Positions 375-36,658 of a stretch of DNA of 64,000 bases are shown here, piece after piece. A model generated the notes under the pieces. That model searched no databases. It worked only from the letters and a program-made list of their open reading frames with translations, and had not been told where the DNA came from. Source of the stretch: Candidatus Micrarchaeota archaeon (GTDB lineage Archaea > Micrarchaeota > Micrarchaeia > Anstonellales > Bilamarchaeaceae); contig JBFMCO010000022.1 of assembly GCA_040754495.1 (NCBI GenBank), positions 18,233 to 82,232 on the forward strand, in the 5' to 3' direction. The stretch's first letter is position 1. Every line of letters starts with the position of its first letter. The position numbers were made by a program, and so were the translations under genes.

Positions 375-540
375 GGGCCCATAGCTCAGCTTGGTAGGGG
401 GGCCGCTCTTATTATAAGAGAGGCCTCGCCGTAAGCGACGGACTCTTATCTTTTGGAAAGGCACTTACAGCCCGTTTTGGGCCGCCTTTTCCCAAAAGGC
501 GGAAATCCGTGTGTCGAGGGTTCAAATCCCTCTGGGCCCG
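375..540 (+). tRNA. tRNA-Lys(CUU) with two introns (about 398-433 in the D-arm, 449-504 at canonical 37/38)
   Basis: Acceptor GGGCCCA/TGGGCCC. D-arm GCTC-AGCTTGGTA-G[intron]AGC. Anticodon stem ACGGA/TCCGT with loop CUCUUA[intron]A. T-arm GAGGG-TTCAAAT-CCCTC, discriminator G, no encoded CCA. Splice boundaries are ambiguous by 1-2 nt. Confidence 0.75.
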
Positions 541-24703: not shown

Positions 24704-25228
24704 CTAGCGGCCCGTCCTGATTCTGTCCGCGAAGCGCTCCATGGAGCAGGATGGGTTCCCGGGGTCGCGGACCGCCATCTCCAGCTCCTTGAGCCGCAAT
24801 CCGTCGGGATGGGCGCGGTCTATGAAGCGCGCGATAATTTTTCCGCCCTCTTCATGGAGCGAGAGATACCAGTATTTCACCCACTGCGAGATGTCGCCGA
24901 GAGTCTCGCCTTCCATGCGCGGCCTCTGCCTCGACGACTTGGTGTCGCAGAGCTCGAGGCCGCCCTCGAAGCGGGAGAGCCGGACCTTCGGCGGGAACGC
25001 GAGCGCCACGTAGATGTCGAAGCCCGGCTCTGCGCCGAGCGTCCTGCAAAGCTCGGCGATGGCTTGCCGGGCCTCCACGGTCTTCCGCATGGGTATCGGC
25101 CAGCCGGGGCTCGCCTTCCCGGCACGGTCGCCTTCCGGTTTCATGGCATCCAGCTCCCGCCTGGGGGGCCGGCCTGGCTTTTCCGGCGTGTCCGTTTCGC
25201 GGGGCGGGCCGGTGATCCTTTTGACCAT
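24704..25228 (-). CDS. small hypothetical protein, first gene of the convergent array (distant or unrelated to the paralogs)
   Basis: ORF track, ATG at 25228. Pro/Arg/Glu-rich N-tail like its neighbours. 40-nt spacer to the next gene. Confidence 0.5.
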   Translation of the reverse strand: MVKRITGPPRETDTPEKPGRPPRRELDAMKPEGDRAGKASPGWPIPMRKTVEARQAIAELCRTLGAEPGFDIYVALAFPPKVRLSRFEGGLELCDTKSSRQRPRMEGETLGDISQWVKYWYLSLHEEGGKIIARFIDRAHPDGLRLKELEMAVRDPGNPSCSMERFADRIRTGR

Positions 25229-25283
25229 AGGATATTACTTATGGTTATCAACATTTTTAAACAGAATTAATGACATATTGTGC
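25229..25283. promoter_or_regulatory. AT-rich divergent intergenic region (candidate bidirectional promoter)
   Basis: 55 bp between divergent starts 25228 (-) and 25284 (+). Contains ATTTTTAAAC and TTAATGA, in contrast to the GC-rich surroundings. Confidence 0.35.
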
Positions 25284-26207
25284 ATGATGCTCGCAGGACC
25301 CAGGGCCAGGCTTGCGCAGAGGGCTGCAAGGTTCTCTTCGTACGCGGTGCTTGCCGGCAGCCTGATGGGCGGATGCCATGACAAAGGCGGTGCCGCCCCT
25401 GCCGAAGACGGGGGCGCCGAACTTCCGTTCTACCGGCTTCCGAGGGAGAGGGACGCGTCAGCGCCGGATTCCGCAGGGGCAATGCCGCCGGCGGCTGCTC
25501 CGCCTGGCACGCAGAGCGCCATACGAGGCCCCCCGCCGCAACGCTCAAGCCTCGGCTGCCAGGACGGGATGGCGAATGCGGGCAGGTACTGCATAGACGC
25601 TTACGAAGTCCACCTCGTGGACGGAACGGGCTCGCCCCGTCCCTATTACACGCGCCCGCCGGAGGACATGCGGGGGCTTAGGGCGGCGACTGCTCCGGGC
25701 GTGTTCCCGCAGGGCTACCTGAACCAGCTCCAGGCGCGCACGGCGTGCCGGAATGCGGGCAAGAGGCTCTGCACGCTCGAGGAGTGGCAGGGCGCGTGCA
25801 GGGGAAGCGGAGGCATGAGGTATCCATATGGCATGTCGTTCGAGGAAGGGAGATGCAATACGCTGAAGTCGCCGCACATACTCGACAAAATCTTCCCGGA
25901 CATACCGCACCTCCGGCGCATGGGCAGGGAGTTCAACGACCCGAGGCTCCTGCAGGAGCCGGGCTACCTGGCGAGGGGCGGCGAATACAGCGGCTGCGCC
26001 ACGGAGAGCGGGATTCACGACATGGCCGGAAACCTCTCGGAATGGGTGGATGATTCCGTGGAGCGGGACGGCATGCTGTATGGGACTTTCGCGGGCGGAC
26101 CTTTCAGCGGGCCGGTGAAAGGCGGGTGCGGGCACTGGACGAGCGTGCATGCGGCGAAATACTCGGATTACTCGATAGGGACAAGGTGCTGCGCGGACGG
26201 GCGGTAG
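25284..26207 (+). CDS. FGE-sulfatase/SUMF1-type (C-lectin fold) domain protein with lipoprotein-like N-terminus
   Basis: In-frame ATG at 25284 (MMLAGPRARL...LAGSLMGGC). Motifs CRNAGKRLCTLEEWQGAC and GIHDMAGNLSEWVDD are typical of the FGE-sulfatase domain. The upstream part of ORF 25014..26207 overlaps the - strand gene. Confidence 0.65.
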   Translation: MMLAGPRARLAQRAARFSSYAVLAGSLMGGCHDKGGAAPAEDGGAELPFYRLPRERDASAPDSAGAMPPAAAPPGTQSAIRGPPPQRSSLGCQDGMANAGRYCIDAYEVHLVDGTGSPRPYYTRPPEDMRGLRAATAPGVFPQGYLNQLQARTACRNAGKRLCTLEEWQGACRGSGGMRYPYGMSFEEGRCNTLKSPHILDKIFPDIPHLRRMGREFNDPRLLQEPGYLARGGEYSGCATESGIHDMAGNLSEWVDDSVERDGMLYGTFAGGPFSGPVKGGCGHWTSVHAAKYSDYSIGTRCCADGR

Positions 26208-28504: not shown

Positions 28505-29209
28505 ATGCTGAGCATCGTGATACCAACATACAACGAGGAGGAGCACATCGGGGGGCTCCTCGAATCACTTAAGCCTCAGCTCGCGGAAGGCGACGAGATA
28601 ATAGTAGTGGACAGCCGCAGCCATGACCGCACAGCGGAGATAGCGCGGAGGCATGGCGCGAGGGTGATAGAGGAGCCCAAGAGAGGGAACGGCCTTGCGA
28701 GGACGGCCGGCGCGAGAGCCGCCCGGAACGGCATAGTGGTATTCGTTGACGCAGACTGCGTCCCCTCGGGCGGCTTCCTGGCGCGGATAAGGAGGCATTT
28801 TGCCTCGCAGGAGACCGTTGCCGTGGGCGGCCTCGACTTATATCACTCCGAATCCGGCCTGAACAGGCTCGTATATGACACGTTTTCCAGGAGCGTGTTC
28901 TTTTCCGCCATGCTGACGCACGCGCTGACAGGCAGGTATTGGCTCGCCTCGAACAACTCCGCCTACAGGAAGGACGTGTTCCTTTCCGCAGGCGGCTACC
29001 GCTCCGTGATATGCGAGGACACGGACCTCACGCGGAGGCTCCCTCCATCTAAGCACGTGGTGTATGACGCTCATCTCGTGCTCTCGCTCTCGGACCGCAG
29101 GTTCAAAAAAGACGGATTCCTGAGCACCATCTCGCTCTGGGGCAGGAGCAACATAGCCGCATGGACCGGCAGGGGCGCCGACAGCTCCGCCTACAAGACG
29201 TCCTATTAG
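28505..29209 (+). CDS. family 2 glycosyltransferase
   Basis: ATG at 28505. LSIVIPTYNEEEHI...IIVVDSRSHDRT...VVFVDADC (DxD) is a GT-A/GT2 pattern. Confidence 0.75.
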   Translation: MLSIVIPTYNEEEHIGGLLESLKPQLAEGDEIIVVDSRSHDRTAEIARRHGARVIEEPKRGNGLARTAGARAARNGIVVFVDADCVPSGGFLARIRRHFASQETVAVGGLDLYHSESGLNRLVYDTFSRSVFFSAMLTHALTGRYWLASNNSAYRKDVFLSAGGYRSVICEDTDLTRRLPPSKHVVYDAHLVLSLSDRRFKKDGFLSTISLWGRSNIAAWTGRGADSSAYKTSY

Positions 29210-30660
29210 GCGCGCTTCCATCTGACGCCGCCGGCCGCGGCCTTGTCCTCGAGCATGATGCCTGCTTCCTTCAGCCTCGCCCGGATGGCATCCGACTTCC
29301 CGTAGTCCTTTTTGGCTCTCGCCTCGTCGCGCATGCGGATTAGCGCCTCGAGCGCCGCCTCCGCGCTTCCGGCCGCCGGCGCCCCGAATTCAAGCAGGAG
29401 CGCGGAGAGCGCCGCGGCCAAATCATCGAGGCCAGCCTTCTTCTCCTCGAGGCCGAGCACCCACAGCATGCCTGAAAGCGAATCCGAGACCTTCCGGAGC
29501 TGCTCGTGGTCTACGCGGCCGCTCATGTGGGCATTCGCGATGCGGAGCAGGTTGAAGAGGGAGGCGATCGCCTCGGGCGTCCGGAGGTCGTCTTCCATGC
29601 AGGCGTGGAAGTCCGCAATCAGCGCGTCGCTCTTTTTCCTGAATTCCTCGTCCCTGTGCCCGTCGCCCTTCGTGGTGTCTATCTCGCGGATGAGGCCCAG
29701 CGAGTTGAATATCCTCTCCACGCTCTCCTCCATCGAGTCGAGAACGTCCTCGTCGTAGTCAAGCGGGCTGCGGTAGTGGGCCTGGAGGTAGAAGAGGCGG
29801 AGGGCGTTCGGGCTGCTCCGCGATAGGGCCTGCGCAAGCGTCACGAAGTTCCCGAGGGACTTGCTCATCTTCTCCCCTTCCACGGTCAGGAAGCCGAAGT
29901 GCATCCAGTGCCTGCAGAACTGCTCCCCGCTCGCAGCCTCGCTTTGCGCGATTTCGTTCTCATGGTGCGGGAATATCAGGTCCCGCCCCCCGCCGTGGAC
30001 GTCGAGCGTGCCGCCCGCGTACTTTCCCGCCATCGCAGAGCATTCTATGTGCCAGCCGGGCCTCCCCCTGCCCCAGGGGCTGTCGAACTCGATGATTTCG
30101 CCGCTCGTCTTTTTCCACAGCGCGAAATCGGCCGGGTCCTTCTTCGTTTCCTCGACCTCGAAGCGCGAGCCGGCCCGTATCTCCTCCAGGTTCTGCCCCG
30201 AGAGCGAGCCGTAACGGGGGAATGAGGAGATGTCGAAATAGACGCCGCTTTTCGTCTCGTACGCCTTCCCGCGCGCAATCAGCTTCTGCACGAGCGCGAT
30301 GATGTCCGGGATGTGCCCTGTGACCTTCGGATAGACGTCGGCCGGGAGGATGGAGAGCTTGCCAAAAAGCTCGAGCGCCTCGTCGTGGTTGGCTTTCGTC
30401 AGCGCGGCCGGGTCTGCCCCGGTCTCCTTGCAGCGCCTGATTATCTTGTCGTCAACGTCGGTTATGTTCTGGATATGGTAGATGATATGCCCACTGCGGA
30501 GGAGGTAGCGCTTCAGCACGTCGAATGAGACGTACGCCCGGGCGTGGCCTATGTGCGCGCTGTCGTAGGGGGTGAGGCCGCAGACGTACATCACGACCTT
30601 CCTGCCGCGCGGCGGGGAGAAGTCTTCCGCCCGCTTTGTGAGCGAATTGAAAAGGCGCAT
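29206..30660 (-). CDS. cysS: cysteine--tRNA ligase
   Basis: From MRLFNSLTK... MYVCGLTPYDSAHIGHAR (HIGH), KMSKSLGNF (KMSKS), WHIECS. The ORF-track N-terminal extension to 30936 overlaps the divergent gene and is not credible. Confidence 0.85.
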   Translation of the reverse strand: MRLFNSLTKRAEDFSPPRGRKVVMYVCGLTPYDSAHIGHARAYVSFDVLKRYLLRSGHIIYHIQNITDVDDKIIRRCKETGADPAALTKANHDEALELFGKLSILPADVYPKVTGHIPDIIALVQKLIARGKAYETKSGVYFDISSFPRYGSLSGQNLEEIRAGSRFEVEETKKDPADFALWKKTSGEIIEFDSPWGRGRPGWHIECSAMAGKYAGGTLDVHGGGRDLIFPHHENEIAQSEAASGEQFCRHWMHFGFLTVEGEKMSKSLGNFVTLAQALSRSSPNALRLFYLQAHYRSPLDYDEDVLDSMEESVERIFNSLGLIREIDTTKGDGHRDEEFRKKSDALIADFHACMEDDLRTPEAIASLFNLLRIANAHMSGRVDHEQLRKVSDSLSGMLWVLGLEEKKAGLDDLAAALSALLLEFGAPAAGSAEAALEALIRMRDEARAKKDYGKSDAIRARLKEAGIMLEDKAAAGGVRWKRA

Positions 30661-30762
30661 CGGAGATTTGTGCGCTCGAAAAATATTTATAAAGATACCA
30701 TACGAGTATAAGCCCAAACCGCTCCGGAATCCGGAGGGGAGTCTAGCAGGGAGGTATTGATT

Positions 30763-31134
30763 ATGGCAGAAGAGAAAAAAGAGGTCAAAGCGCCTGCGAT
30801 GGCGTCGACCACCGTCTCTGGGCTGAGCAATGAGAGCAAGTTGTGGGCGGCGTTGTGCTACGTCTTCCCCATCCTCATGTTCATCCTGGTCTACGTGATG
30901 GAGGACAAGAAGAAGGACAAGTTCATCTTCTTCCATGCATGGCAGAGCCTCCTGGCAGGCCTTGCGGGCTGGGCAATCTCCATGGTGATTGCGGTCGTCA
31001 CGTTCGGCATCGGCTCGCTGTGCTTCCCGGTTTACTGGCTGGTGCTGCTCTACTTCGCGTACAAGGCATACCAGGGCGAGAAGTTCCTGCTGCCGACGAT
31101 TGGCCCGATGGCCGAGCAGTACGCCAGCAAGTGA
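30763..31134 (+). CDS. small membrane protein, DUF4870-like
   Basis: ATG at 30763 after GGGAGGT. LWAALCYVFPILMFILVYV...FFHAWQSLLAG. Three hydrophobic segments. Confidence 0.55.
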   Translation: MAEEKKEVKAPAMASTTVSGLSNESKLWAALCYVFPILMFILVYVMEDKKKDKFIFFHAWQSLLAGLAGWAISMVIAVVTFGIGSLCFPVYWLVLLYFAYKAYQGEKFLLPTIGPMAEQYASK

Positions 31135-31235
31135 GTTTTTTTCATTTTTCTTTCTTATTTTCCCTCTTTATCCGGGAATTCGGACACCAATAGCGGATTT
31201 TTAAAACTTATCCCCGATTTATCCGCGGTGATAAT

Positions 31236-31685
31236 TTGGGTATTGATATTGGCAAATCGCTGAAAGTGGCGACAATTCCGATCGTGATTCTTATCGCCAT
31301 CGGGGTGTTTTCGAGCATCGTCGGGGCCATCCCGGTCCTGAACATACTCTTGTGCCTCGTGGGCATACCCCTCGCGCTTGTGAGCTGGGTGGTTACCGCC
31401 TGGTCCGGGTACAAGGCGGTCAAGGAAGCGCAGATGGACCTCGTAGGCGGCGCGGTCACCGGCGGCCTCACGGCCCTCATAGCGGGCATAGTGAACGGCA
31501 TCGTCAGCTTCGTGCTCAGCCTCCTCGGCATGGGCGTCGGGGTTGCTACCGGCGGTGACGTTGGCGGCGCTGCGGTTGGCGCGGGCTTCGGCCTGGTCTT
31601 CATCGTGATAGGCATCGTGGTCGGCACGATATTCGGCCTGGTGCTCGGTGCGATAGGCGCTTTCGTAGCAGGGATGAAGAAGTAG
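31236..31685 (+). CDS. Gly-rich multi-pass membrane protein, hypothetical
   Basis: ORF track (TTG start). Almost entirely hydrophobic/Gly-rich (GVATGGDVGGAAVGAGFGLVFIVIGIVVG). The antisense 172-aa ORF is a shadow. Confidence 0.5.
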   Translation: MGIDIGKSLKVATIPIVILIAIGVFSSIVGAIPVLNILLCLVGIPLALVSWVVTAWSGYKAVKEAQMDLVGGAVTGGLTALIAGIVNGIVSFVLSLLGMGVGVATGGDVGGAAVGAGFGLVFIVIGIVVGTIFGLVLGAIGAFVAGMKK

Positions 31686-31777
31686 GTTTCTTTTTCCCTT
31701 ATTTTTCCCTTTTCTCTATTCTTCAAGACCCTAGACCGGAAACTGGAAACCGCAAGTCATACCTGAGGCCCGGGAGT

Positions 31778-34700
31778 TCACAGGAAATCGGACAGCCCCA
31801 TCTGCTTGACCTTGTCGTCCTCGAATATGCTCTTTATCTCCCGCTCGACAAGCACCAGCCTCTGCTTCAGGTAGGAGGGAAGGTCGTAGCGGTCGCATAT
31901 GTCGCGGGATATCTCCAGGTATTTCTCGATTCCGCCCTTGTTGATTGTGAGGAGGAGGTTGCCCCCGCAGCGCGCGCACTTGCCCGCCAAGGGCACCCTG
32001 CGGAAGATGGTGTTGCACGAGACGCAGCGGAAGGTCTGCCTTGAGAAGGAGCGCAGGTTGCCGTAGAGGTCCGGGATGAAATGGCTCAGTATCAGGCGCT
32101 CGGCTGCATCGCGCCTATCAACCGGGCGGAGGCGGCCCTGGAGCCTGAACTGTATGTCTATCTTGTCCGGTATGGACTGCAGCTCCACGTAAGCCGTCCG
32201 TATGTTCCCGACATCAAGCGTGCCGCCCGGATGCGTGATGGGAAGCTCGTACTGCTCGTCGGTCCCCAGGACGTCCTTCACGGTCTTGAGCTTCACCTCG
32301 CCCGGCGGCGCGAAGCGCTCCGCGGCCTCGTAGAACTCGAGGGGGTAGCGCGAGACGATTTCGATGCAGTGCGCCTCGTCGTCCACCTCCTTGGGGTTTA
32401 TCTCTATGGAGAGCACGAGGGGCGCGTCCATGGTGCCCCCGCGCTTCTCGTCGAGGAACCTGCGGGAGAAGTTGATGAGGGCGTCCATCAGGAGCATCAC
32501 GCAGTCCTCGTCGCCGTCGCACCGAATCGTAAAGACCTGGTTGTTCAGAAGAACATTCTTTTCTTCCAGGGATTGGCCTTCCACATCGAGGCAGTATGCC
32601 GGAACTCCGTCTGTGAATTTCTCAATCGACCTGACCTTATCGAAAATATAGTCGCTTTGAGGCACGACCGTGAACAGCTTATTCTGGTATTTGATAAATC
32701 GCGCATCGCTCGACAGACCGTTTCTTCTCAGTTCGGACATTCGTTCTGCCTTATGCTTCACAGAGGGCGCGCAGATATTTGCAAAGGCATATAGGTCGGT
32801 GCCATAAAGACTAATGAATCTCTGCGAAAGCAAACGCGGGGTTTTTCCGAGCTCTTTATACCTTTCAAGGACCTTTTTGCCAGGCAAACGCGGTTTGGTT
32901 TTGCCATACCTGCAGAAGATTCCAAATCGCAAAAGCAGCGTGCCGAAATCCTCCAAAAGATTTTGTGAAACGGAGTAGAAGTGCATTCTCGGGGGGGTGG
33001 CGATTACACTTCCATCTCCGTCAAAATAAGCAGAAATAAAGGATTTGACAAGACGGTCAGGCAGTGAAAAGACGAGATTTGGAACCCGTTTCGTGTAGGC
33101 ATTTGAGCCGGTCTTCAAGACTTTATCAAACAGAAGGTGGATTATCCGGCTGCACATTGTTATCTGAGTGCCGTTCTCGCCAAGATAAGGGTTCGTCATA
33201 AAAACGCTTTTGATGGCGGCAATAAGCCGGTTCTGCATTATTTTATTGCAAACCCTGAAGCTGACCTGATAACACGAAGGGCTTCTCCGTGCATACCCCT
33301 CTGAGACGAAGTAGCCGAGAATGAGCATCAGGTCCTCATCTATTGGAATTCTTACCGGCAGCCCCAGGTTATCTCTCTTCATGGCAATTTTTGCATCCAT
33401 GGGCAAATCCTCAAAATTGCACACCCCCTCTTCCACAAGGATTTCGAAATGGGAGAGTGGAACGCGTCCATACCACCTGCTCGGAGTCCGTCTCTCGATT
33501 TTGTTGAGCGGCAGGATTCTGAGCAGCAAATCGCGATGATTATAGAATATTTTCTTGAAAAAATCCTTCGAGCGAAGTATTATCGCTTCTTTTTCTTCCT
33601 TTTTTAGTGGAGATAGGGCCTTTGCAAGATTGAGCACGCGGGAGTCGTCTATCGTGTGCGGATTGAATTTTATGCAAACTGGCAGATCGGAGCCTTCAGT
33701 CATATCTTTTGCCTGAACTGCGCTAAGCGCCCCTTTGTTGAGGCAAAGAATATTATGGTCGGGAGTCACGGTAATCTCCCGGTGGGTGGTTGTCGTAAGC
33801 TTAATCCATTTATCGGGAGCCTTTGCTCTGATGAAGCATTTGATTTTTTTACGGATTGTTTTGTGGGATTGGAGGTCTATTCCGAATGAGTAAAGAGTTC
33901 CGGGAACTTCCACTTTTTCTGTATAAGCATCAAGCCGCTTGACCCTGTCGGGGTATTTGGCAAACATTTCTTCGGTAACATCGCCCAGTGCCCTTTTGAT
34001 ATATTTTTTCTCGTGCTCATCAAATATGATAATCTCGGTTGCCGGATGGAAGCAGTTCCTTCTCTTCGCCGTGTGGAAATACGGGTGGCCGTAGCCGACG
34101 TTGGCCTTGTTGAAGCCCACGATGCGGCACAGGACGCCGGCGCTCGTGTGCGGCGAGAGCCCGACTGCCAGGTGGCCTATCAGGTCGTCCTTCGACTTCA
34201 CGTTGTAGAAGGGCTTCATGCCGTAGAGGTTGATTAGCATGTCGTCGATGAAATCCGCCACACGCATGAAGTACGCGGCGCCGTTCTCGGAGAGGACGAT
34301 GTCCTGGTGCCGCAGCGCCAGCGTCTGGGAGCCGCTCTCGAGGGGCTTGCCAAGATAATCCACGGCATAACCGAGCGCCCTGGCCCTATCGAGGCTTATG
34401 CCCACCTCGTCCGGCGTGAAATGCGTGAGCGGGATGTCTGTCGCGTCGAAGCGGGAGGTGCCGTCCCTGAAAACGTAGACGTCGTGCTTTGCGCGGAGGA
34501 AGCCCTTCTCCAGCCGCTCCGGGATGCGGATGGTGTTCGAGAGGCCCTTCACCCCCTTCACGTCTTCCGGGGAGCTCCCCACCCGGTCCTTCACGCGCTC
34601 GAAGAGCTCCATTATGTCTACGGGCCTGCGGTCGTAGGAGAGCGTCTTCATCTCGCAGTGGATTTCGTACTCGCAGATGCGGCCGCACTTCTGGCATATC

Positions 34701-36658
34701 CGCTCCTCGGCGGCCCTGCCGCCGCAGACGTCGCAGCGCCGGTAATAGCCGAGGCGGCGGCATTTTTCGCATCGCAGCCTGGCGAGCTCCAGGTTGATCG
34801 TCTTCTCGCCCTCGGCACCCCTGAGGGCACGGTGGACCTTGCTCAGGCTCCGGTTCTTGAACGAGCCGGTCGGGAAGAGGACGTGCGGCGAGCCGTCCAT
34901 CTTCCTTTCCTTTGCCTTCTCCGGCCTGCCCATGCGCGCTCCTATATAAGTAGGAGCCTTGGCCTTGATGCGTATCTGGGAGGCCGCGTTCACGATTTCG
35001 AGCGCGCCCTTTGCGGCATCGTATGCCGCTTCGAAGCGGGAGAGGTCTATGCGGCCATCCGAAAGCGCCCCCAGCGAAGAGAGGAGCGCGTACGCGTCGT
35101 CGCCGTCAAGGATGACATTCCCGTCGTGCACCCTGTGCTCCGCGAGGAGCTCCTCCAGGGCCCTTTTCGCAGGCGATGGCGGAAGGACGAGCGAGCGGAG
35201 CCTGCCATCGTGCATCTCCAGCTTCCCGCCCTTGAGCCAGTCCGCCAGGGATTTGAGCTGGTCCGGCGACAGGTCGTGCCAGTGGAATGTGTAGCGCGGA
35301 TGTAGAGGCACGCCATGCGTCCGCGAGAATGCAAAAAGCCCCGGCGCGTCCATGGCGGCAGGAGGCTGGACTCCCTTGGATTCGAGCTCGCGCTCCCACC
35401 ACTCTTCGCAGTAGCCGGATGGCATGAGGGGGTGGTTGGACTTGTGGAAATCGCCGTACGTGCAGAGCAGGTCGCCCAGGAAAAGGATTTCTTCCACCTC
35501 GTCCTTGATGCCGTACGACTCCTCCAGCGTCCGCACCTTCATCACGCGCCCGCTTTTGAGCTTCACGACCGGCGGCTCGAGCCCCTCGTGCGCCGCGACC
35601 ACGCAGCCCTTCCCGGGGCGCTCTATCTTCATGTGAGTCCCGTAGGCCAGGAAGTTGTCGAGCAGTATCATCGTGGCAGGATGGACGTCCTTGCCCATGA
35701 GGCAGGTGGTCTTGCTCCTGCCGTAGCGCAACCGGAACCCGCCCTTGGCCGAAGGGTGGCTGAAGACCGGCCTCCCCGCTACAAGCCCTTCCATGTAGGT
35801 CCAGTCCGGCTTCACCTCGACCTTGTCCGCCTTTTTCTTTATCTTGATGATTTTCTCGAGCCAGTCCCAGCCCAGCTTGAGCTTCTTGGCGTATTTGAGG
35901 AGCTTGGCGGCCTTCGCTGCCACGCCCTCGCACATGACGAGGGGCACGCCGCCGCGCACGCGGTCCGTCTCCACTCCCGGCACCCCGCGGTAGGTCGAGA
36001 CCTCGATTTCCTCGGTCGGGTCGCCGTCTATGCAGACCGGGCAGTTGGATGCTATCACGCGCACGTCGTCCTCCGGCGGCATGTACTGGAGGTGGGTTAC
36101 GCGCGTCTCGTATGTCGTTACCTCCTCGTAGTATCTTGCAATCTGGGAGTCCGTGGCGCGGTAGTCCCCCACGCTGCATACGCGGCGCGCGATGTCGGCA
36201 AGCACCAGGCTGAGGGCGGCCGCAGTGCCTCCTGCGCTCCGGATGGGGCCCGCATAATAGACCGCCACGTAGTCGCTCCCGTCCGGGTTGCGCTTTATCC
36301 TCACTTTCGCTATGCCCTCGGTCGGGGCGACCAGGACGCCCTCGGTGAGTATGCCGAGGCCCGTCCTCACCGCCTGTTCGATGAGAAGCTCCTTGGACGC
36401 CTTCATCAGCTCGCCGCCGGCGATTTTGCGTGCGATTTCGAACGCGATGTCCTCGCGGCCCATGCCACCTTTTTCCATGTCCCGGATGAGATCTGCCACT
36501 CCGGGGGGGCCGACGATACCCTCCACGCGGGCGGCGATGTCCTTGGCTATCTTGACTTCTATGTCGTCGCTCGGGTCATAGCCGAGCCTCCTTGCCTCTG
36601 AGGCGACGGCGTATGCCTTCTGCAGCCCCTCGCGGAGCGTCTCCACATACTCTCCCAT
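31778..36658 (-). CDS. polC: DNA polymerase II (PolD) large subunit DP2, interrupted by one intein
   Basis: 1,626 aa. Zn-finger run CEKCRRLGYYRRCDVCGG...CQKCG. Catalytic region GHPYFHTAKRRN|C...|CDGDEDCVMLLMDALINFSRRFLDEKRGGTMDAPLVL, which is contiguous in intein-free DP2. Confidence 0.9.
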   Translation of the reverse strand: MGEYVETLREGLQKAYAVASEARRLGYDPSDDIEVKIAKDIAARVEGIVGPPGVADLIRDMEKGGMGREDIAFEIARKIAGGELMKASKELLIEQAVRTGLGILTEGVLVAPTEGIAKVRIKRNPDGSDYVAVYYAGPIRSAGGTAAALSLVLADIARRVCSVGDYRATDSQIARYYEEVTTYETRVTHLQYMPPEDDVRVIASNCPVCIDGDPTEEIEVSTYRGVPGVETDRVRGGVPLVMCEGVAAKAAKLLKYAKKLKLGWDWLEKIIKIKKKADKVEVKPDWTYMEGLVAGRPVFSHPSAKGGFRLRYGRSKTTCLMGKDVHPATMILLDNFLAYGTHMKIERPGKGCVVAAHEGLEPPVVKLKSGRVMKVRTLEESYGIKDEVEEILFLGDLLCTYGDFHKSNHPLMPSGYCEEWWERELESKGVQPPAAMDAPGLFAFSRTHGVPLHPRYTFHWHDLSPDQLKSLADWLKGGKLEMHDGRLRSLVLPPSPAKRALEELLAEHRVHDGNVILDGDDAYALLSSLGALSDGRIDLSRFEAAYDAAKGALEIVNAASQIRIKAKAPTYIGARMGRPEKAKERKMDGSPHVLFPTGSFKNRSLSKVHRALRGAEGEKTINLELARLRCEKCRRLGYYRRCDVCGGRAAEERICQKCGRICEYEIHCEMKTLSYDRRPVDIMELFERVKDRVGSSPEDVKGVKGLSNTIRIPERLEKGFLRAKHDVYVFRDGTSRFDATDIPLTHFTPDEVGISLDRARALGYAVDYLGKPLESGSQTLALRHQDIVLSENGAAYFMRVADFIDDMLINLYGMKPFYNVKSKDDLIGHLAVGLSPHTSAGVLCRIVGFNKANVGYGHPYFHTAKRRNCFHPATEIIIFDEHEKKYIKRALGDVTEEMFAKYPDRVKRLDAYTEKVEVPGTLYSFGIDLQSHKTIRKKIKCFIRAKAPDKWIKLTTTTHREITVTPDHNILCLNKGALSAVQAKDMTEGSDLPVCIKFNPHTIDDSRVLNLAKALSPLKKEEKEAIILRSKDFFKKIFYNHRDLLLRILPLNKIERRTPSRWYGRVPLSHFEILVEEGVCNFEDLPMDAKIAMKRDNLGLPVRIPIDEDLMLILGYFVSEGYARRSPSCYQVSFRVCNKIMQNRLIAAIKSVFMTNPYLGENGTQITMCSRIIHLLFDKVLKTGSNAYTKRVPNLVFSLPDRLVKSFISAYFDGDGSVIATPPRMHFYSVSQNLLEDFGTLLLRFGIFCRYGKTKPRLPGKKVLERYKELGKTPRLLSQRFISLYGTDLYAFANICAPSVKHKAERMSELRRNGLSSDARFIKYQNKLFTVVPQSDYIFDKVRSIEKFTDGVPAYCLDVEGQSLEEKNVLLNNQVFTIRCDGDEDCVMLLMDALINFSRRFLDEKRGGTMDAPLVLSIEINPKEVDDEAHCIEIVSRYPLEFYEAAERFAPPGEVKLKTVKDVLGTDEQYELPITHPGGTLDVGNIRTAYVELQSIPDKIDIQFRLQGRLRPVDRRDAAERLILSHFIPDLYGNLRSFSRQTFRCVSCNTIFRRVPLAGKCARCGGNLLLTINKGGIEKYLEISRDICDRYDLPSYLKQRLVLVEREIKSIFEDDKVKQMGLSDFL
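32522..34054 (-). mobile_element. intein (511 aa) with LAGLIDADG homing-endonuclease domain in PolD DP2
   Basis: Starts CFHPATEIIIFD after KRRN. Block B ITVTPDHNIL. LAGLIDADG motifs LILGYFVSEGYA and FISAYFDGDGSV. Block F-like AYCLDVEG. Ends ...NVLLNNQVFTIR directly before CDGDED. Confidence 0.8.

What the first reader, a model, noticed from the sequence alone, without database searches (positions are those of the whole stretch)
32522..34054. PolD DP2 intein lacks the canonical C-terminal His-Asn
The intein sits at the KRRN|CDGDED site and has Cys1, a TxxH block B (TPDH), two LAGLIDADG motifs and a block F-like AYCLDVEG. Its last residues before the +1 Cys are ...NVLLNNQVFTIR. There is no terminal Asn, Gln or Asp to cyclise and no penultimate His. 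Terminal-residue variation has precedent at this insertion site: a Pyrococcus abyssi PolII intein ends in Gln. A terminal Arg, however, is not compatible with the standard mechanism. PolD is essential, so one of three things must hold. The boundary may differ from what extein alignment implies. Splicing may use an unusual route. Or the sequence may contain an error.
Basis: partly seen in the sequence, partly recalled or inferred. Interest (0 to 1): 0.5.

Follow-up and report, generated by a model that had tools for sequence, protein, structure and literature searches.

The report
DNA polymerase intein ending in arginine
The self-splicing insert (intein) in this archaeon's DNA polymerase D gene does end in arginine instead of the asparagine or glutamine that known splicing chemistry needs, and the same arginine is kept in about three dozen related inteins, which points to an undescribed way of completing protein splicing.

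Summary
A 511-aa LAGLIDADG intein (window 32522-34054, minus strand) splits the catalytic NCDGD motif of PolD DP2. It ends ...NNQVFTIR|C.

The boundary is fixed by 85%-identical intein-free alleles that read KRRN-CDGDED without a gap. The arginine is not a sequencing error. It ends 36 distinct related DP2 inteins, eight of them mini-inteins, mostly from DPANN and Thermoplasmatota MAGs. Their splicing domains are as little as 19% identical to each other. Five different Arg codons encode it.

The clade also lacks both histidines that assist Asn/Gln cyclisation. Block F has Lys/Arg and the penultimate residue is hydrophobic. It keeps Cys1, TxxH, Cys at F:4, an invariant Trp and Cys+1.

Three results argue that these inteins splice:
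- The exteins are under strong purifying selection (dN/dS about 0.1).
- Cys+1 is always kept when the intein is present, although 28% of intein-free alleles have Ala there.
- The intein's base composition is foreign to its host gene.

The final step therefore has to be non-canonical. I favour arginine N-epsilon cyclisation, but this is untested. No report of Arg-terminated inteins was found. I rate it a new variant of a known kind, of high interest, and easy to test.

The parts
31778..36658 (-). PolD large subunit (DP2) precursor gene, 1626 aa including the intein
   Evidence: ORF, translation, Pfam DP2 N/central/catalytic domains. Identical to P0161, NCBI MAG Candidatus Micrarchaeota.
34055..36658 (-). 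N-extein (868 aa), ending ...HPYFHTAKRRN
   Evidence: Contiguous with the C-extein in intein-free homologues.
32522..34054 (-). Intein, 511 aa: HINT splicing domain with a nested LAGLIDADG homing endonuclease. GC 46% (GC3 0.53), against 63% (GC3 0.86) in the exteins.
   Evidence: AlphaFold model with pLDDT 89.3. Foldseek top hits are PI-PkoII, TliVMA and PI-PfuI.
34052..34054 (-). Cys1, the step-1 nucleophile (block A)
   Evidence: Invariant in 89 of 89 DP2-site inteins.
33806..33808 (-). Trp83, invariant in Arg-terminated inteins (34/34) and rare in the others (15%)
33755..33766 (-). Block B, T97-P-D-H100 (TxxH)
33290..33325 (-). First LAGLIDADG motif, LILGYFVSEGYA
33005..33040 (-). Second LAGLIDADG motif, FISAYFDGDGSV
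32546..32599 (-). Block F, AYCLDVEGQSLEEKNVLL. Cys488 is at F:4 (32591-32593). A 4-6 residue insertion is specific to the clade. Lys499 (32558-32560) stands where the block F His normally is.
32522..32545 (-). Block G, NNQVFTIR. The penultimate residue is Ile and the terminal residue is Arg511 (codon CGG, 32522-32524).
31778..32521 (-). C-extein (247 aa plus stop codon), starting with Cys+1 (32519-32521) of the catalytic CDGDED motif
   Evidence: The role of the motif is from PMC7708050.

Best explanation
This is a working, horizontally acquired intein with a nested LAGLIDADG homing endonuclease. It belongs to a deep clade of DP2-site inteins in which the terminal residue is an invariant arginine.

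Steps 1 and 2 of splicing are inferred to run as in class 1 inteins. Cys1 makes the thioester and Cys+1 takes over the N-extein. Step 3, release of the intein from Cys+1, cannot use Asn/Gln/Asp cyclisation and must be non-canonical and dependent on arginine.

The route I favour (about 0.3 on its own) is attack of the Arg N-epsilon on its own backbone carbonyl. This would give a six-membered delta-lactam. That nitrogen sits at the same side-chain position as the N-epsilon-2 of the Gln used by neighbouring PolII inteins, which form a six-membered glutarimide. The Lys/Arg at the block F His position and the hydrophobic penultimate residue would help lower the guanidinium pKa.

Shown here: the anatomy, the conservation, and selection on both the exteins and the intein. 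Inferred: that splicing happens at all, and all of the chemistry.
For: The boundary is fixed by intein-free alleles that read KRRN-CDGDED.

Conservation of the arginine:
- Arg ends 34 distinct full-length inteins plus P0018 and P0132. Eight are mini-inteins of 175-206 aa.
- Splicing-domain identity within the clade is 19% at minimum and 36% at the median.
- Five Arg codons are used: CGA, CGC, CGG, AGA, AGG. There is no codon reassignment.

Clade signature: Cys F:4 in 34/34, Lys/Arg at the block F His position, Trp83 in 34/34, and a penultimate residue that is never His. The literature assigns step-3 catalysis to exactly those two histidines (PMC8175363).

Evidence that the inteins splice:
- Extein dN/dS is 0.09-0.13, and intein pN/pS is about 0.33.
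- The catalytic motif is intact in all hosts.
- The insertion lies inside the essential acidic motif NCDGD (PMC7708050).
- Cys+1 is present in 15/15 Arg-intein alleles, against Cys 62, Ala 25 and Ser 1 in intein-free relatives (Fisher p = 0.009).
- The intein is compositionally foreign, GC3 0.53 against 0.86, which suggests invasion of a live gene.
- The fold is a canonical HINT domain plus endonuclease.
- A related Arg-type DP2 sits in a DP1-DP2 operon and also occurs on a 1.37-Mb contig.

Evidence for the lactam route in particular:
- The nearest non-Arg relatives end in Gln (P0042, L011/L012, P0023, P0025, P0036).
- Gln CAA/CAG to Arg CGA/CGG is one transition.
- Delta-lactam formation by carboxyl-activated Arg, and by ornithine, is established peptide chemistry (my own knowledge).
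Against: - No splicing was observed. Every sequence is from an uncultured MAG or a metagenome.
- Guanidinium is a very poor nucleophile at neutral pH (pKa above 12), and I know of no natural precedent for this reaction.
- The invariant Cys at F:4 fits a different step-3 route equally well.
- The +1 residue test is not corrected for phylogeny.
- Clade support is only moderate. It rests on NJ trees, and two non-Arg members (P0016 ending in Asn, P0042 ending in Gln) are nested inside the clade.
- No atomic coordinates were available, so I could not check what surrounds the Arg.
- The literature check covered open-access text only. InBase could not be consulted.
Confidence: 0.62

Rival explanations
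1. The intein splices on its own, but step 3 is a cysteine-protease-like reaction. The invariant block F Cys (F:4, Cys488) attacks the Arg511-Cys+1 peptide bond. This forms a thiolactone within the intein and frees the amine of Cys+1. The terminal Arg only positions the scissile bond, for example through a salt bridge or by stacking on Trp83.
For: Cys F:4 is invariant in 34/34 Arg-type inteins but present in only 29% of the Gln/Asn-type inteins at this site. F:4 lies next to both splice junctions, and in class 3 inteins Cys F:4 is a proven nucleophile (PMC4031507). Lys/Arg at the block F His position could act as the general base.
Against: Many Gln-terminated PolII inteins also carry Cys F:4, so the cysteine is not specific to the Arg state. 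A purely positional role explains the strict invariance of Arg across five codons less well. No intein is known to do this.
Confidence: 0.18
2. The intein splices on its own through a second N-to-S acyl shift at Cys+1. The intein's C-terminal carbonyl moves onto the Cys+1 thiol. The freed alpha-amine then attacks the N-extein thioester, and the remaining thioester is hydrolysed.
For: Cys+1 is strictly kept when the intein is present. The chemistry mirrors step 1. The 2014 review notes that other mechanisms are possible for non-Asn inteins.
Against: It does not explain why Arg specifically is invariant. It requires Cys+1 to serve two incompatible roles, or the normal order of steps to be reversed.
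Confidence: 0.07
3. The intein carries out steps 1 and 2 only. A host Arg-specific protease or other trans factor then cuts after Arg511 to release the intein.
For: Arg is a classic protease P1 residue. Most hosts are DPANN archaea and could share such a factor.
Against: The clade is spread over Micrarchaeota, Woese-, Pace- and Nanoarchaeota and Thermoplasmatota. Its foreign base composition suggests mobility between hosts, and mobility favours self-sufficiency. No candidate protease is linked to the locus.
Confidence: 0.06
4. The insert does not splice. The gene product is inactive or works with the insert in place, and replication relies on another polymerase or on a second DP2 copy.
For: Every host is uncultured and there are no protein data. 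Whole genomes could not be searched for a second copy.
Against: Extein dN/dS is about 0.1, and the catalytic motif is intact in 36 independent hosts. The insertion splits the catalytic acidic motif. Mini-inteins with no endonuclease retain all the splicing blocks. Cys+1 is retained. The 64-kb window holds no second DP2.
Confidence: 0.05
5. It is an artefact: a sequencing or assembly error, a misplaced boundary, or a reassigned codon (for example CGG read as Gln).
For: None was found.
Against: Arg recurs in independent assemblies and is encoded by five codons. One mini-intein protein occurs with exactly the same sequence on 11 contigs. Intein-free alleles fix the boundary. CGG aligns with Arg in the exteins.
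Confidence: 0.01

Closest known systems
PolII (DP2) inteins of Pyrococcus abyssi, P. horikoshii and Methanoculleus marisnigri, which end in Gln
   Same: Same insertion point, between N and C of the NCDGD motif. Same Cys1, TxxH and Cys+1. They also lack the terminal Asn, which shows this site tolerates a step-3 residue with a nucleophilic nitrogen at the epsilon position. They appear among the structural matches (2lcj and 5bkh).
   Different: They end in His-Gln and keep the block F His, the two residues credited with catalysing Gln cyclisation. The window intein ends in Ile-Arg and has Lys at the block F His position, Cys at F:4 and an insertion in block F. Pab and Pho are mini-inteins. This intein carries a LAGLIDADG endonuclease.
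Class 1 inteins in general
   Same: HINT fold, block A Cys, block B TxxH, +1 Cys, and insertion into a conserved catalytic motif of a replication protein.
   Different: The defining step-3 residue (Asn, or rarely Gln, Asp or Glu; PMC4031507) is replaced by Arg, which cannot form an imide or an anhydride.
Class 3 inteins (WCT motif, Cys F:4 nucleophile)
   Same: Invariant Cys at F:4. In this window there is also Thr at G:5 and an invariant Trp elsewhere in the N-terminal splicing domain.
   Different: Cys1 is kept. The Trp is not at B:12, which is Ile here. Class 3 inteins still end in Asn.
PI-PkoII (2cw7), TliVMA and PI-PfuI, archaeal inteins with a LAGLIDADG endonuclease
   Same: Best structural matches over the whole 527-residue model (E = 1.8e-32 to 3e-18). 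Same two-domain architecture.
   Different: Different host genes. To my knowledge they have canonical C-termini, which I did not check here. Sequence identity is only 11-19%.
B-type bacterial intein-like (BIL) domains
   Same: [quoted passage not shown] They show that a HINT domain can cut its C-terminal junction without Asn.
   Different: BIL domains sit in variable bacterial proteins, mostly cleave rather than ligate, and are not inserted in conserved catalytic motifs (my own knowledge). Here precise ligation is needed to rebuild NCDGD.

Membership tests
Intein (class 1 protein-splicing element) | In-frame insertion in a conserved host motif, with the host sequence contiguous in intein-free homologues | tested here: met
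   88 intein-free DP2 relatives read KRRN[C/A/S]DGDED. The site is the catalytic NCDGD motif.
Intein (class 1 protein-splicing element) | HINT fold | tested here: met
   Pfam Intein_splicing. AlphaFold pLDDT 89.3. HINT domains of the PabCDC21-1 and Pho RadA inteins superpose at 1.6-1.9 A.
Intein (class 1 protein-splicing element) | Cys/Ser at position 1 and TxxH in block B | tested here: met
   Cys1 and T97-P-D-H100. Cys1 and His are invariant in 89/89.
Intein (class 1 protein-splicing element) | Cys/Ser/Thr at +1 | tested here: met
   Cys+1. Present in 15/15 Arg-type alleles, although Ala occurs in 25 of 88 intein-free alleles.
Intein (class 1 protein-splicing element) | C-terminal Asn (or Gln, Asp, Glu) that cyclises in step 3 | tested here: not met
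   The terminal residue is Arg511 and is invariant in the clade. The allowed residues are those listed in PMC4031507.
Intein (class 1 protein-splicing element) | Penultimate His (G:6) and block F His that assist step 3 | tested here: not met
   The penultimate residue is Ile, and Lys499 stands at the block F His position. About 5% of functional inteins lack the G:6 His.
Intein (class 1 protein-splicing element) | Demonstrated excision and extein ligation | not testable with these tools
   Needs expression of the precursor, or proteomics.
Class 3 intein | No nucleophile at position 1, and the WCT triplet (Trp B:12, Cys F:4, Thr G:5) | tested here: not met
   Cys1 is present. B:12 is Ile. Only Cys F:4 and, in this window, Thr G:5 match.
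Intein-encoded LAGLIDADG homing endonuclease | Two LAGLIDADG motifs with their acidic residues, and the endonuclease fold nested in the HINT domain | tested here: met
   Pfam LAGLIDADG_3. Motifs ...SEGYA and ...DGDGSV are conserved in all large members. Fold matches PI-PkoII and PI-PfuI. The mini-inteins lack exactly this region.
Intein-encoded LAGLIDADG homing endonuclease | Site-specific cleavage of the intein-free allele | not testable with these tools
   The sporadic distribution among close relatives and the foreign GC are only consistent with homing.
PolII/DP2-site intein allele (Pab, Pho, Memar type) | Same insertion point and a terminal His-Gln | tested here: not met
   The insertion point is identical, but the terminus is Ile-Arg. 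Gln-type inteins are a separate group at the same site, including in Micrarchaeota.
B-type BIL domain | HINT domain in variable bacterial proteins that cleaves without ligating | tested here: not met
   The host is a conserved archaeal polymerase motif, with Cys+1 and all the intein blocks present. The properties of BIL domains are and my own knowledge.

The most novel reading that the evidence does not exclude
The terminal arginine is itself the step-3 nucleophile. Its N-epsilon attacks the Arg-Cys+1 peptide bond and forms a delta-lactam. This would define a new mechanistic class of inteins and a new natural chemistry for breaking a peptide bond. It would have arisen from Gln-terminated PolII inteins by a single CAR-to-CGR transition, together with replacement of both helper histidines.
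Probability: 0.3. Interest if true: 0.9.

Novelty: new variant of a known kind. Interest (0 to 1): 0.74.

Why it matters
Every described protein-splicing mechanism (classes 1-3) finishes with cyclisation of a terminal Asn, or rarely Gln, Asp or Glu. Here a deep, conserved clade of inteins sits in a replicative polymerase, ends in Arg and has lost both histidines that assist that cyclisation. This implies that a further way of resolving the branched intermediate exists in nature.

It can be tested directly. The 175-aa mini-inteins of the clade can be synthesised and assayed in E. coli.

If confirmed, it would have three consequences:
- It would extend the known chemistry of self-processing proteins.
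- It would offer a C-terminal cleavage module with different pH and sequence requirements for protein engineering.
- It would show that intein finders that require a terminal [H]N or Q miss or mis-bound real inteins. This matters most in DPANN archaea, where this clade is common.

It also records repeated switching between Asn, Gln and Arg at one insertion site.

Tried and rejected
- A genome-contig scan with the window intein alone found nothing. The window's own genome is not among the species representatives. A second scan with a three-sequence profile worked.
- An exact look-up of the window protein's contig failed, although the same protein was later returned as P0161.
- I checked the other reading frames at the junction for a hidden His-Asn, and looked for an invariant upstream Asn that could be the true intein end. 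Neither exists.
- Codon reassignment of CGG was rejected.
- Class 3 (WCT) membership was rejected because Cys1 is present and B:12 is Ile.
- A profile of the clade's C-terminal 45 residues found no Arg-terminated intein outside DP2 among the 280 proteins held at that point.
- A viral-contig scan gave only weak LAGLIDADG matches.
- One literature query ('class 4 intein' and similar) returned only irrelevant papers. Searches for intein plus 'C-terminal arginine' or 'C-terminal Arg' found nothing relevant.
- The first bootstrap run failed because the distance formula is undefined at high divergence. I reran it with a cap.
- The structure tool returns no coordinates, so contacts around Arg511, Trp83, Lys499 and Cys488 could not be measured.
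- The window contains no DP1 gene and no second DP2.
Full report
WHAT IS THERE

Window 31778..36658 (minus strand) is one ORF of 1626 aa. It carries the three Pfam domains of the archaeal PolD large subunit DP2, plus Intein_splicing and LAGLIDADG_3.

Translation shows ...HPYFHTAKRRN|CFHPATE...(511 aa)...EEKNVLLNNQVFTIR|CDGDEDCV....
- Cys1 at 34052-34054.
- T97-P-D-H100 (block B) at 33755-33766.
- LILGYFVSEGYA at 33290-33325 and FISAYFDGDGSV at 33005-33040.
- Block F, AYCLDVEG...EKNVLL, at 32546-32599.
- Block G, NNQVFTIR, at 32522-32545, with Arg511 encoded by CGG.
- Cys+1 at 32519-32521.

The insert has 46% GC (GC3 0.53) inside a gene of 63% GC (GC3 0.86). The protein is identical to an NCBI MAG protein from 'Candidatus Micrarchaeota archaeon' (P0161).

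BOUNDARY

The closest DP2 proteins are 78-85% identical. Most are 1115 aa with no insert, and they read KRRN-CDGDED, or KRRN-ADGDED, without a gap. QVFTIR is therefore intein sequence.

The only other formally possible boundary is a one-residue shift, because both junctions carry a Cys. That would give an insert running Phe...Cys followed by Asp, which fits no known mechanism at all.

The site lies between N962 and C963 of the catalytic acidic motif NCDGD of PolD. About half of PolD-encoding archaea carry an intein there (PMC7708050).

NOT AN ERROR: A CLADE

- The intein's nearest relatives also end in Arg: 58% identical (...NNQILTIR|C) and 33% identical (...GEQIINTR|C).
- A profile scan of one genome per species found ten further loci in Thermoplasmatales, Pacearchaeota, Nanoarchaeota and Woesearchaeota MAGs. 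All ended ...R|CDGDE.
- In an exhaustive HMMER search of 1.84 billion cluster representatives, the DP2-site inteins among the top 150 hits ended in N (23), Q (23) or R (13). Two more Arg-type members were found with a C-terminal profile.
- Among the 120 closest Micrarchaeota DP2 proteins, 15 carry Arg-type inteins and 17 carry Gln-type inteins.
- After removing duplicates there are 34 full-length Arg-terminated inteins. Eight of these are mini-inteins of 175-206 aa that lack exactly the endonuclease region.
- Within the clade, splicing-domain identity falls to 19%, with a median of 36%.
- The terminal Arg is encoded by CGA, CGC, CGG, AGA and AGG in different members. Selection therefore acts on the amino acid.
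- CGG codons in this gene's exteins align with Arg in homologues as well as the other Arg codons do. Codon reassignment is excluded.
- One mini-intein DP2 (P0294) occurs with exactly the same sequence on 11 contigs.

WHAT ELSE DISTINGUISHES THE CLADE

Alignment of 89 DP2-site inteins gives these clade features:
- Cys at block F position 4 is invariant (34/34, against 29% in the others).
- Lys or Arg stands where the block F His normally is.
- The following Asn is nearly invariant.
- There is a 4-6 residue insertion in block F.
- Trp83 is invariant (15% in the others).
- The penultimate residue is hydrophobic or small, and never His.

The literature assigns catalysis of step 3 to the penultimate His and the block F His (PMC8175363; PMC8229266). 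The whole canonical step-3 apparatus is therefore missing, not only the terminal residue.

Cys1, TxxH and Cys+1 are retained.

Neighbour-joining trees group the Arg-type inteins together. Two non-Arg members are nested among them: P0016 ends in Ser-Asn, and P0042 ends in His-Gln but has Lys at the block F His position. The neighbouring group is mainly Gln-terminated, from Promethearchaeota and others. Bootstrap support is moderate.

FOLD

AlphaFold2 with a 17-sequence alignment gives pLDDT 89.3 and pTM 0.89. The best PDB matches are archaeal inteins with LAGLIDADG endonucleases:
- PI-PkoII 2cw7, E = 1.8e-32.
- TliVMA.
- PI-PfuI.

The HINT part superposes on mini-inteins at 1.6-1.9 A. The architecture is that of an ordinary large intein.

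DOES IT SPLICE?

This is inferred, not shown. Six lines of evidence support it:
(i) The exteins are under strong purifying selection. dN/dS is 0.09 against an intein-free allele and 0.13 against another Arg-type allele. The intein is also constrained (pN 0.26, pS 0.79, saturated).
(ii) The catalytic motif is intact in every host.
(iii) The insert interrupts the catalytic loop of a polymerase reported as essential.
(iv) In this lineage Cys+1 is not needed by the polymerase, since 25 of 88 intein-free alleles have Ala there. Yet all 15 Arg-type alleles keep Cys (Fisher p = 0.009, not phylogenetically corrected). This is expected if Cys+1 serves as the splicing nucleophile.
(v) The mini-inteins have lost their endonuclease but kept every splicing block and the Arg.
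(vi) The foreign base composition and the patchy distribution among close relatives are consistent with invasion by homing, and an invasion can only persist if the host gene stays functional.

A related Arg-type DP2 lies directly downstream of DP1 and also occurs on a 1.37-Mb contig. The window has no second DP2 copy.

MECHANISM

Steps 1 and 2 can proceed as in class 1 inteins. Step 3 cannot. Arg has no amide or carboxyl group with which to form an imide or an anhydride.

I favour attack of the Arg N-epsilon on its own carbonyl to give a six-membered lactam, at about 0.3. The reasons are:
- The nitrogen sits at the same side-chain position as the nucleophilic N-epsilon-2 of Gln, which the neighbouring inteins use to form a six-membered glutarimide.
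- CAR to CGR is a single transition.
- Arg is strictly invariant.
- Replacing the block F His by a cationic Lys/Arg, next to a hydrophobic penultimate residue, is the kind of environment that lowers a guanidinium pKa.
- Lactam formation by activated Arg, and by ornithine, is known peptide chemistry (my own knowledge).

The rivals are:
- Thiolysis of the Arg-Cys bond by the invariant Cys F:4.
- A second N-to-S acyl shift at Cys+1.
- A host protease that cuts after Arg.
- A non-splicing insert.

COMPARISON WITH WHAT IS KNOWN

The 2014 review by Mills, Johnson and Perler lists Asn, Asp, Gln and Glu as terminal residues, and names the Pab and Methanoculleus PolII inteins as Gln cases. Searches of the open-access library for inteins with a C-terminal arginine found nothing relevant. 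Subscription journals and InBase could not be searched, so the claim that this is unreported is provisional.

By fold, site and blocks A and B this is an intein. It fails the class 1 test at the defining step-3 residue and at both helper histidines. It also fails the class 3 test, because Cys1 is present and there is no Trp at B:12.

VERDICT

The feature is a conserved trait of a previously undescribed clade, as far as I could check. I rate it a new variant of a known kind, with interest 0.74.

Noticed in passing
window 1946-22471 (+): A single ORF of 6841 aa with no Pfam match in either half. It may be one of the giant proteins typical of DPANN archaea. Its composition and repeats were not examined.
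   Followed up: partly
P0163-P0273 (intein-free DP2 relatives), the position equivalent to window 32519-32521: 25 of 88 intein-free Micrarchaeota DP2 alleles have Ala instead of Cys at the +1 position (KRRN-A-DGDED), and one has Ser. The polymerase therefore does not need this Cys. An Ala allele could not support splicing, so it may be a form of immunity to productive intein invasion.
   Followed up: partly
P0016 and P0042: Two members nested within the Arg clade do not end in Arg. P0016 ends ...LILSSN and P0042 ends ...GIFLHQ, and both keep Lys at the block F His position. They look like natural intermediates or revertants and would be useful controls in a splicing assay.
   Followed up: partly
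P0188-P0278 (Micrarchaeota DP2 proteins): A second, unrelated intein type occupies the same site in the same phylum. It ends ...HH[TS]L[IV]CSG[IV]xxxQ, is about 447-470 aa or 175 aa long, and has no Cys at F:4. Two intein lineages therefore compete for one homing site.
   Followed up: partly
window 32522-34054 against 31778-32521 and 34055-36658; L028: GC3 is 0.53 in the intein and 0.86 in the exteins. The same contrast (0.55 against 0.81) is seen in P0171, whose intein is only 59% identical. Either the two inteins invaded independently or something keeps the intein from drifting to the host's composition.
   Followed up: partly
window 29206-30936 (-), 31208-31726 (-); L028, L029, L030: The order DP2, a small ORF of 149-172 aa, then cysteinyl-tRNA synthetase in the window resembles L030, where a small ORF with a weak MamF_MmsF hit separates DP2 from the synthetase. 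L028 and L029 also have a 149-aa ORF and a MamF_MmsF ORF after DP2. DP1 lies just upstream of DP2 in L030 and L031 but is absent from the window.
   Followed up: partly
window 461-540 (+); 25014-26207 (+): A tRNA-Gly(CCC) gene, and a 397-aa ORF with a weak FGE-sulfatase domain match.
   Followed up: no
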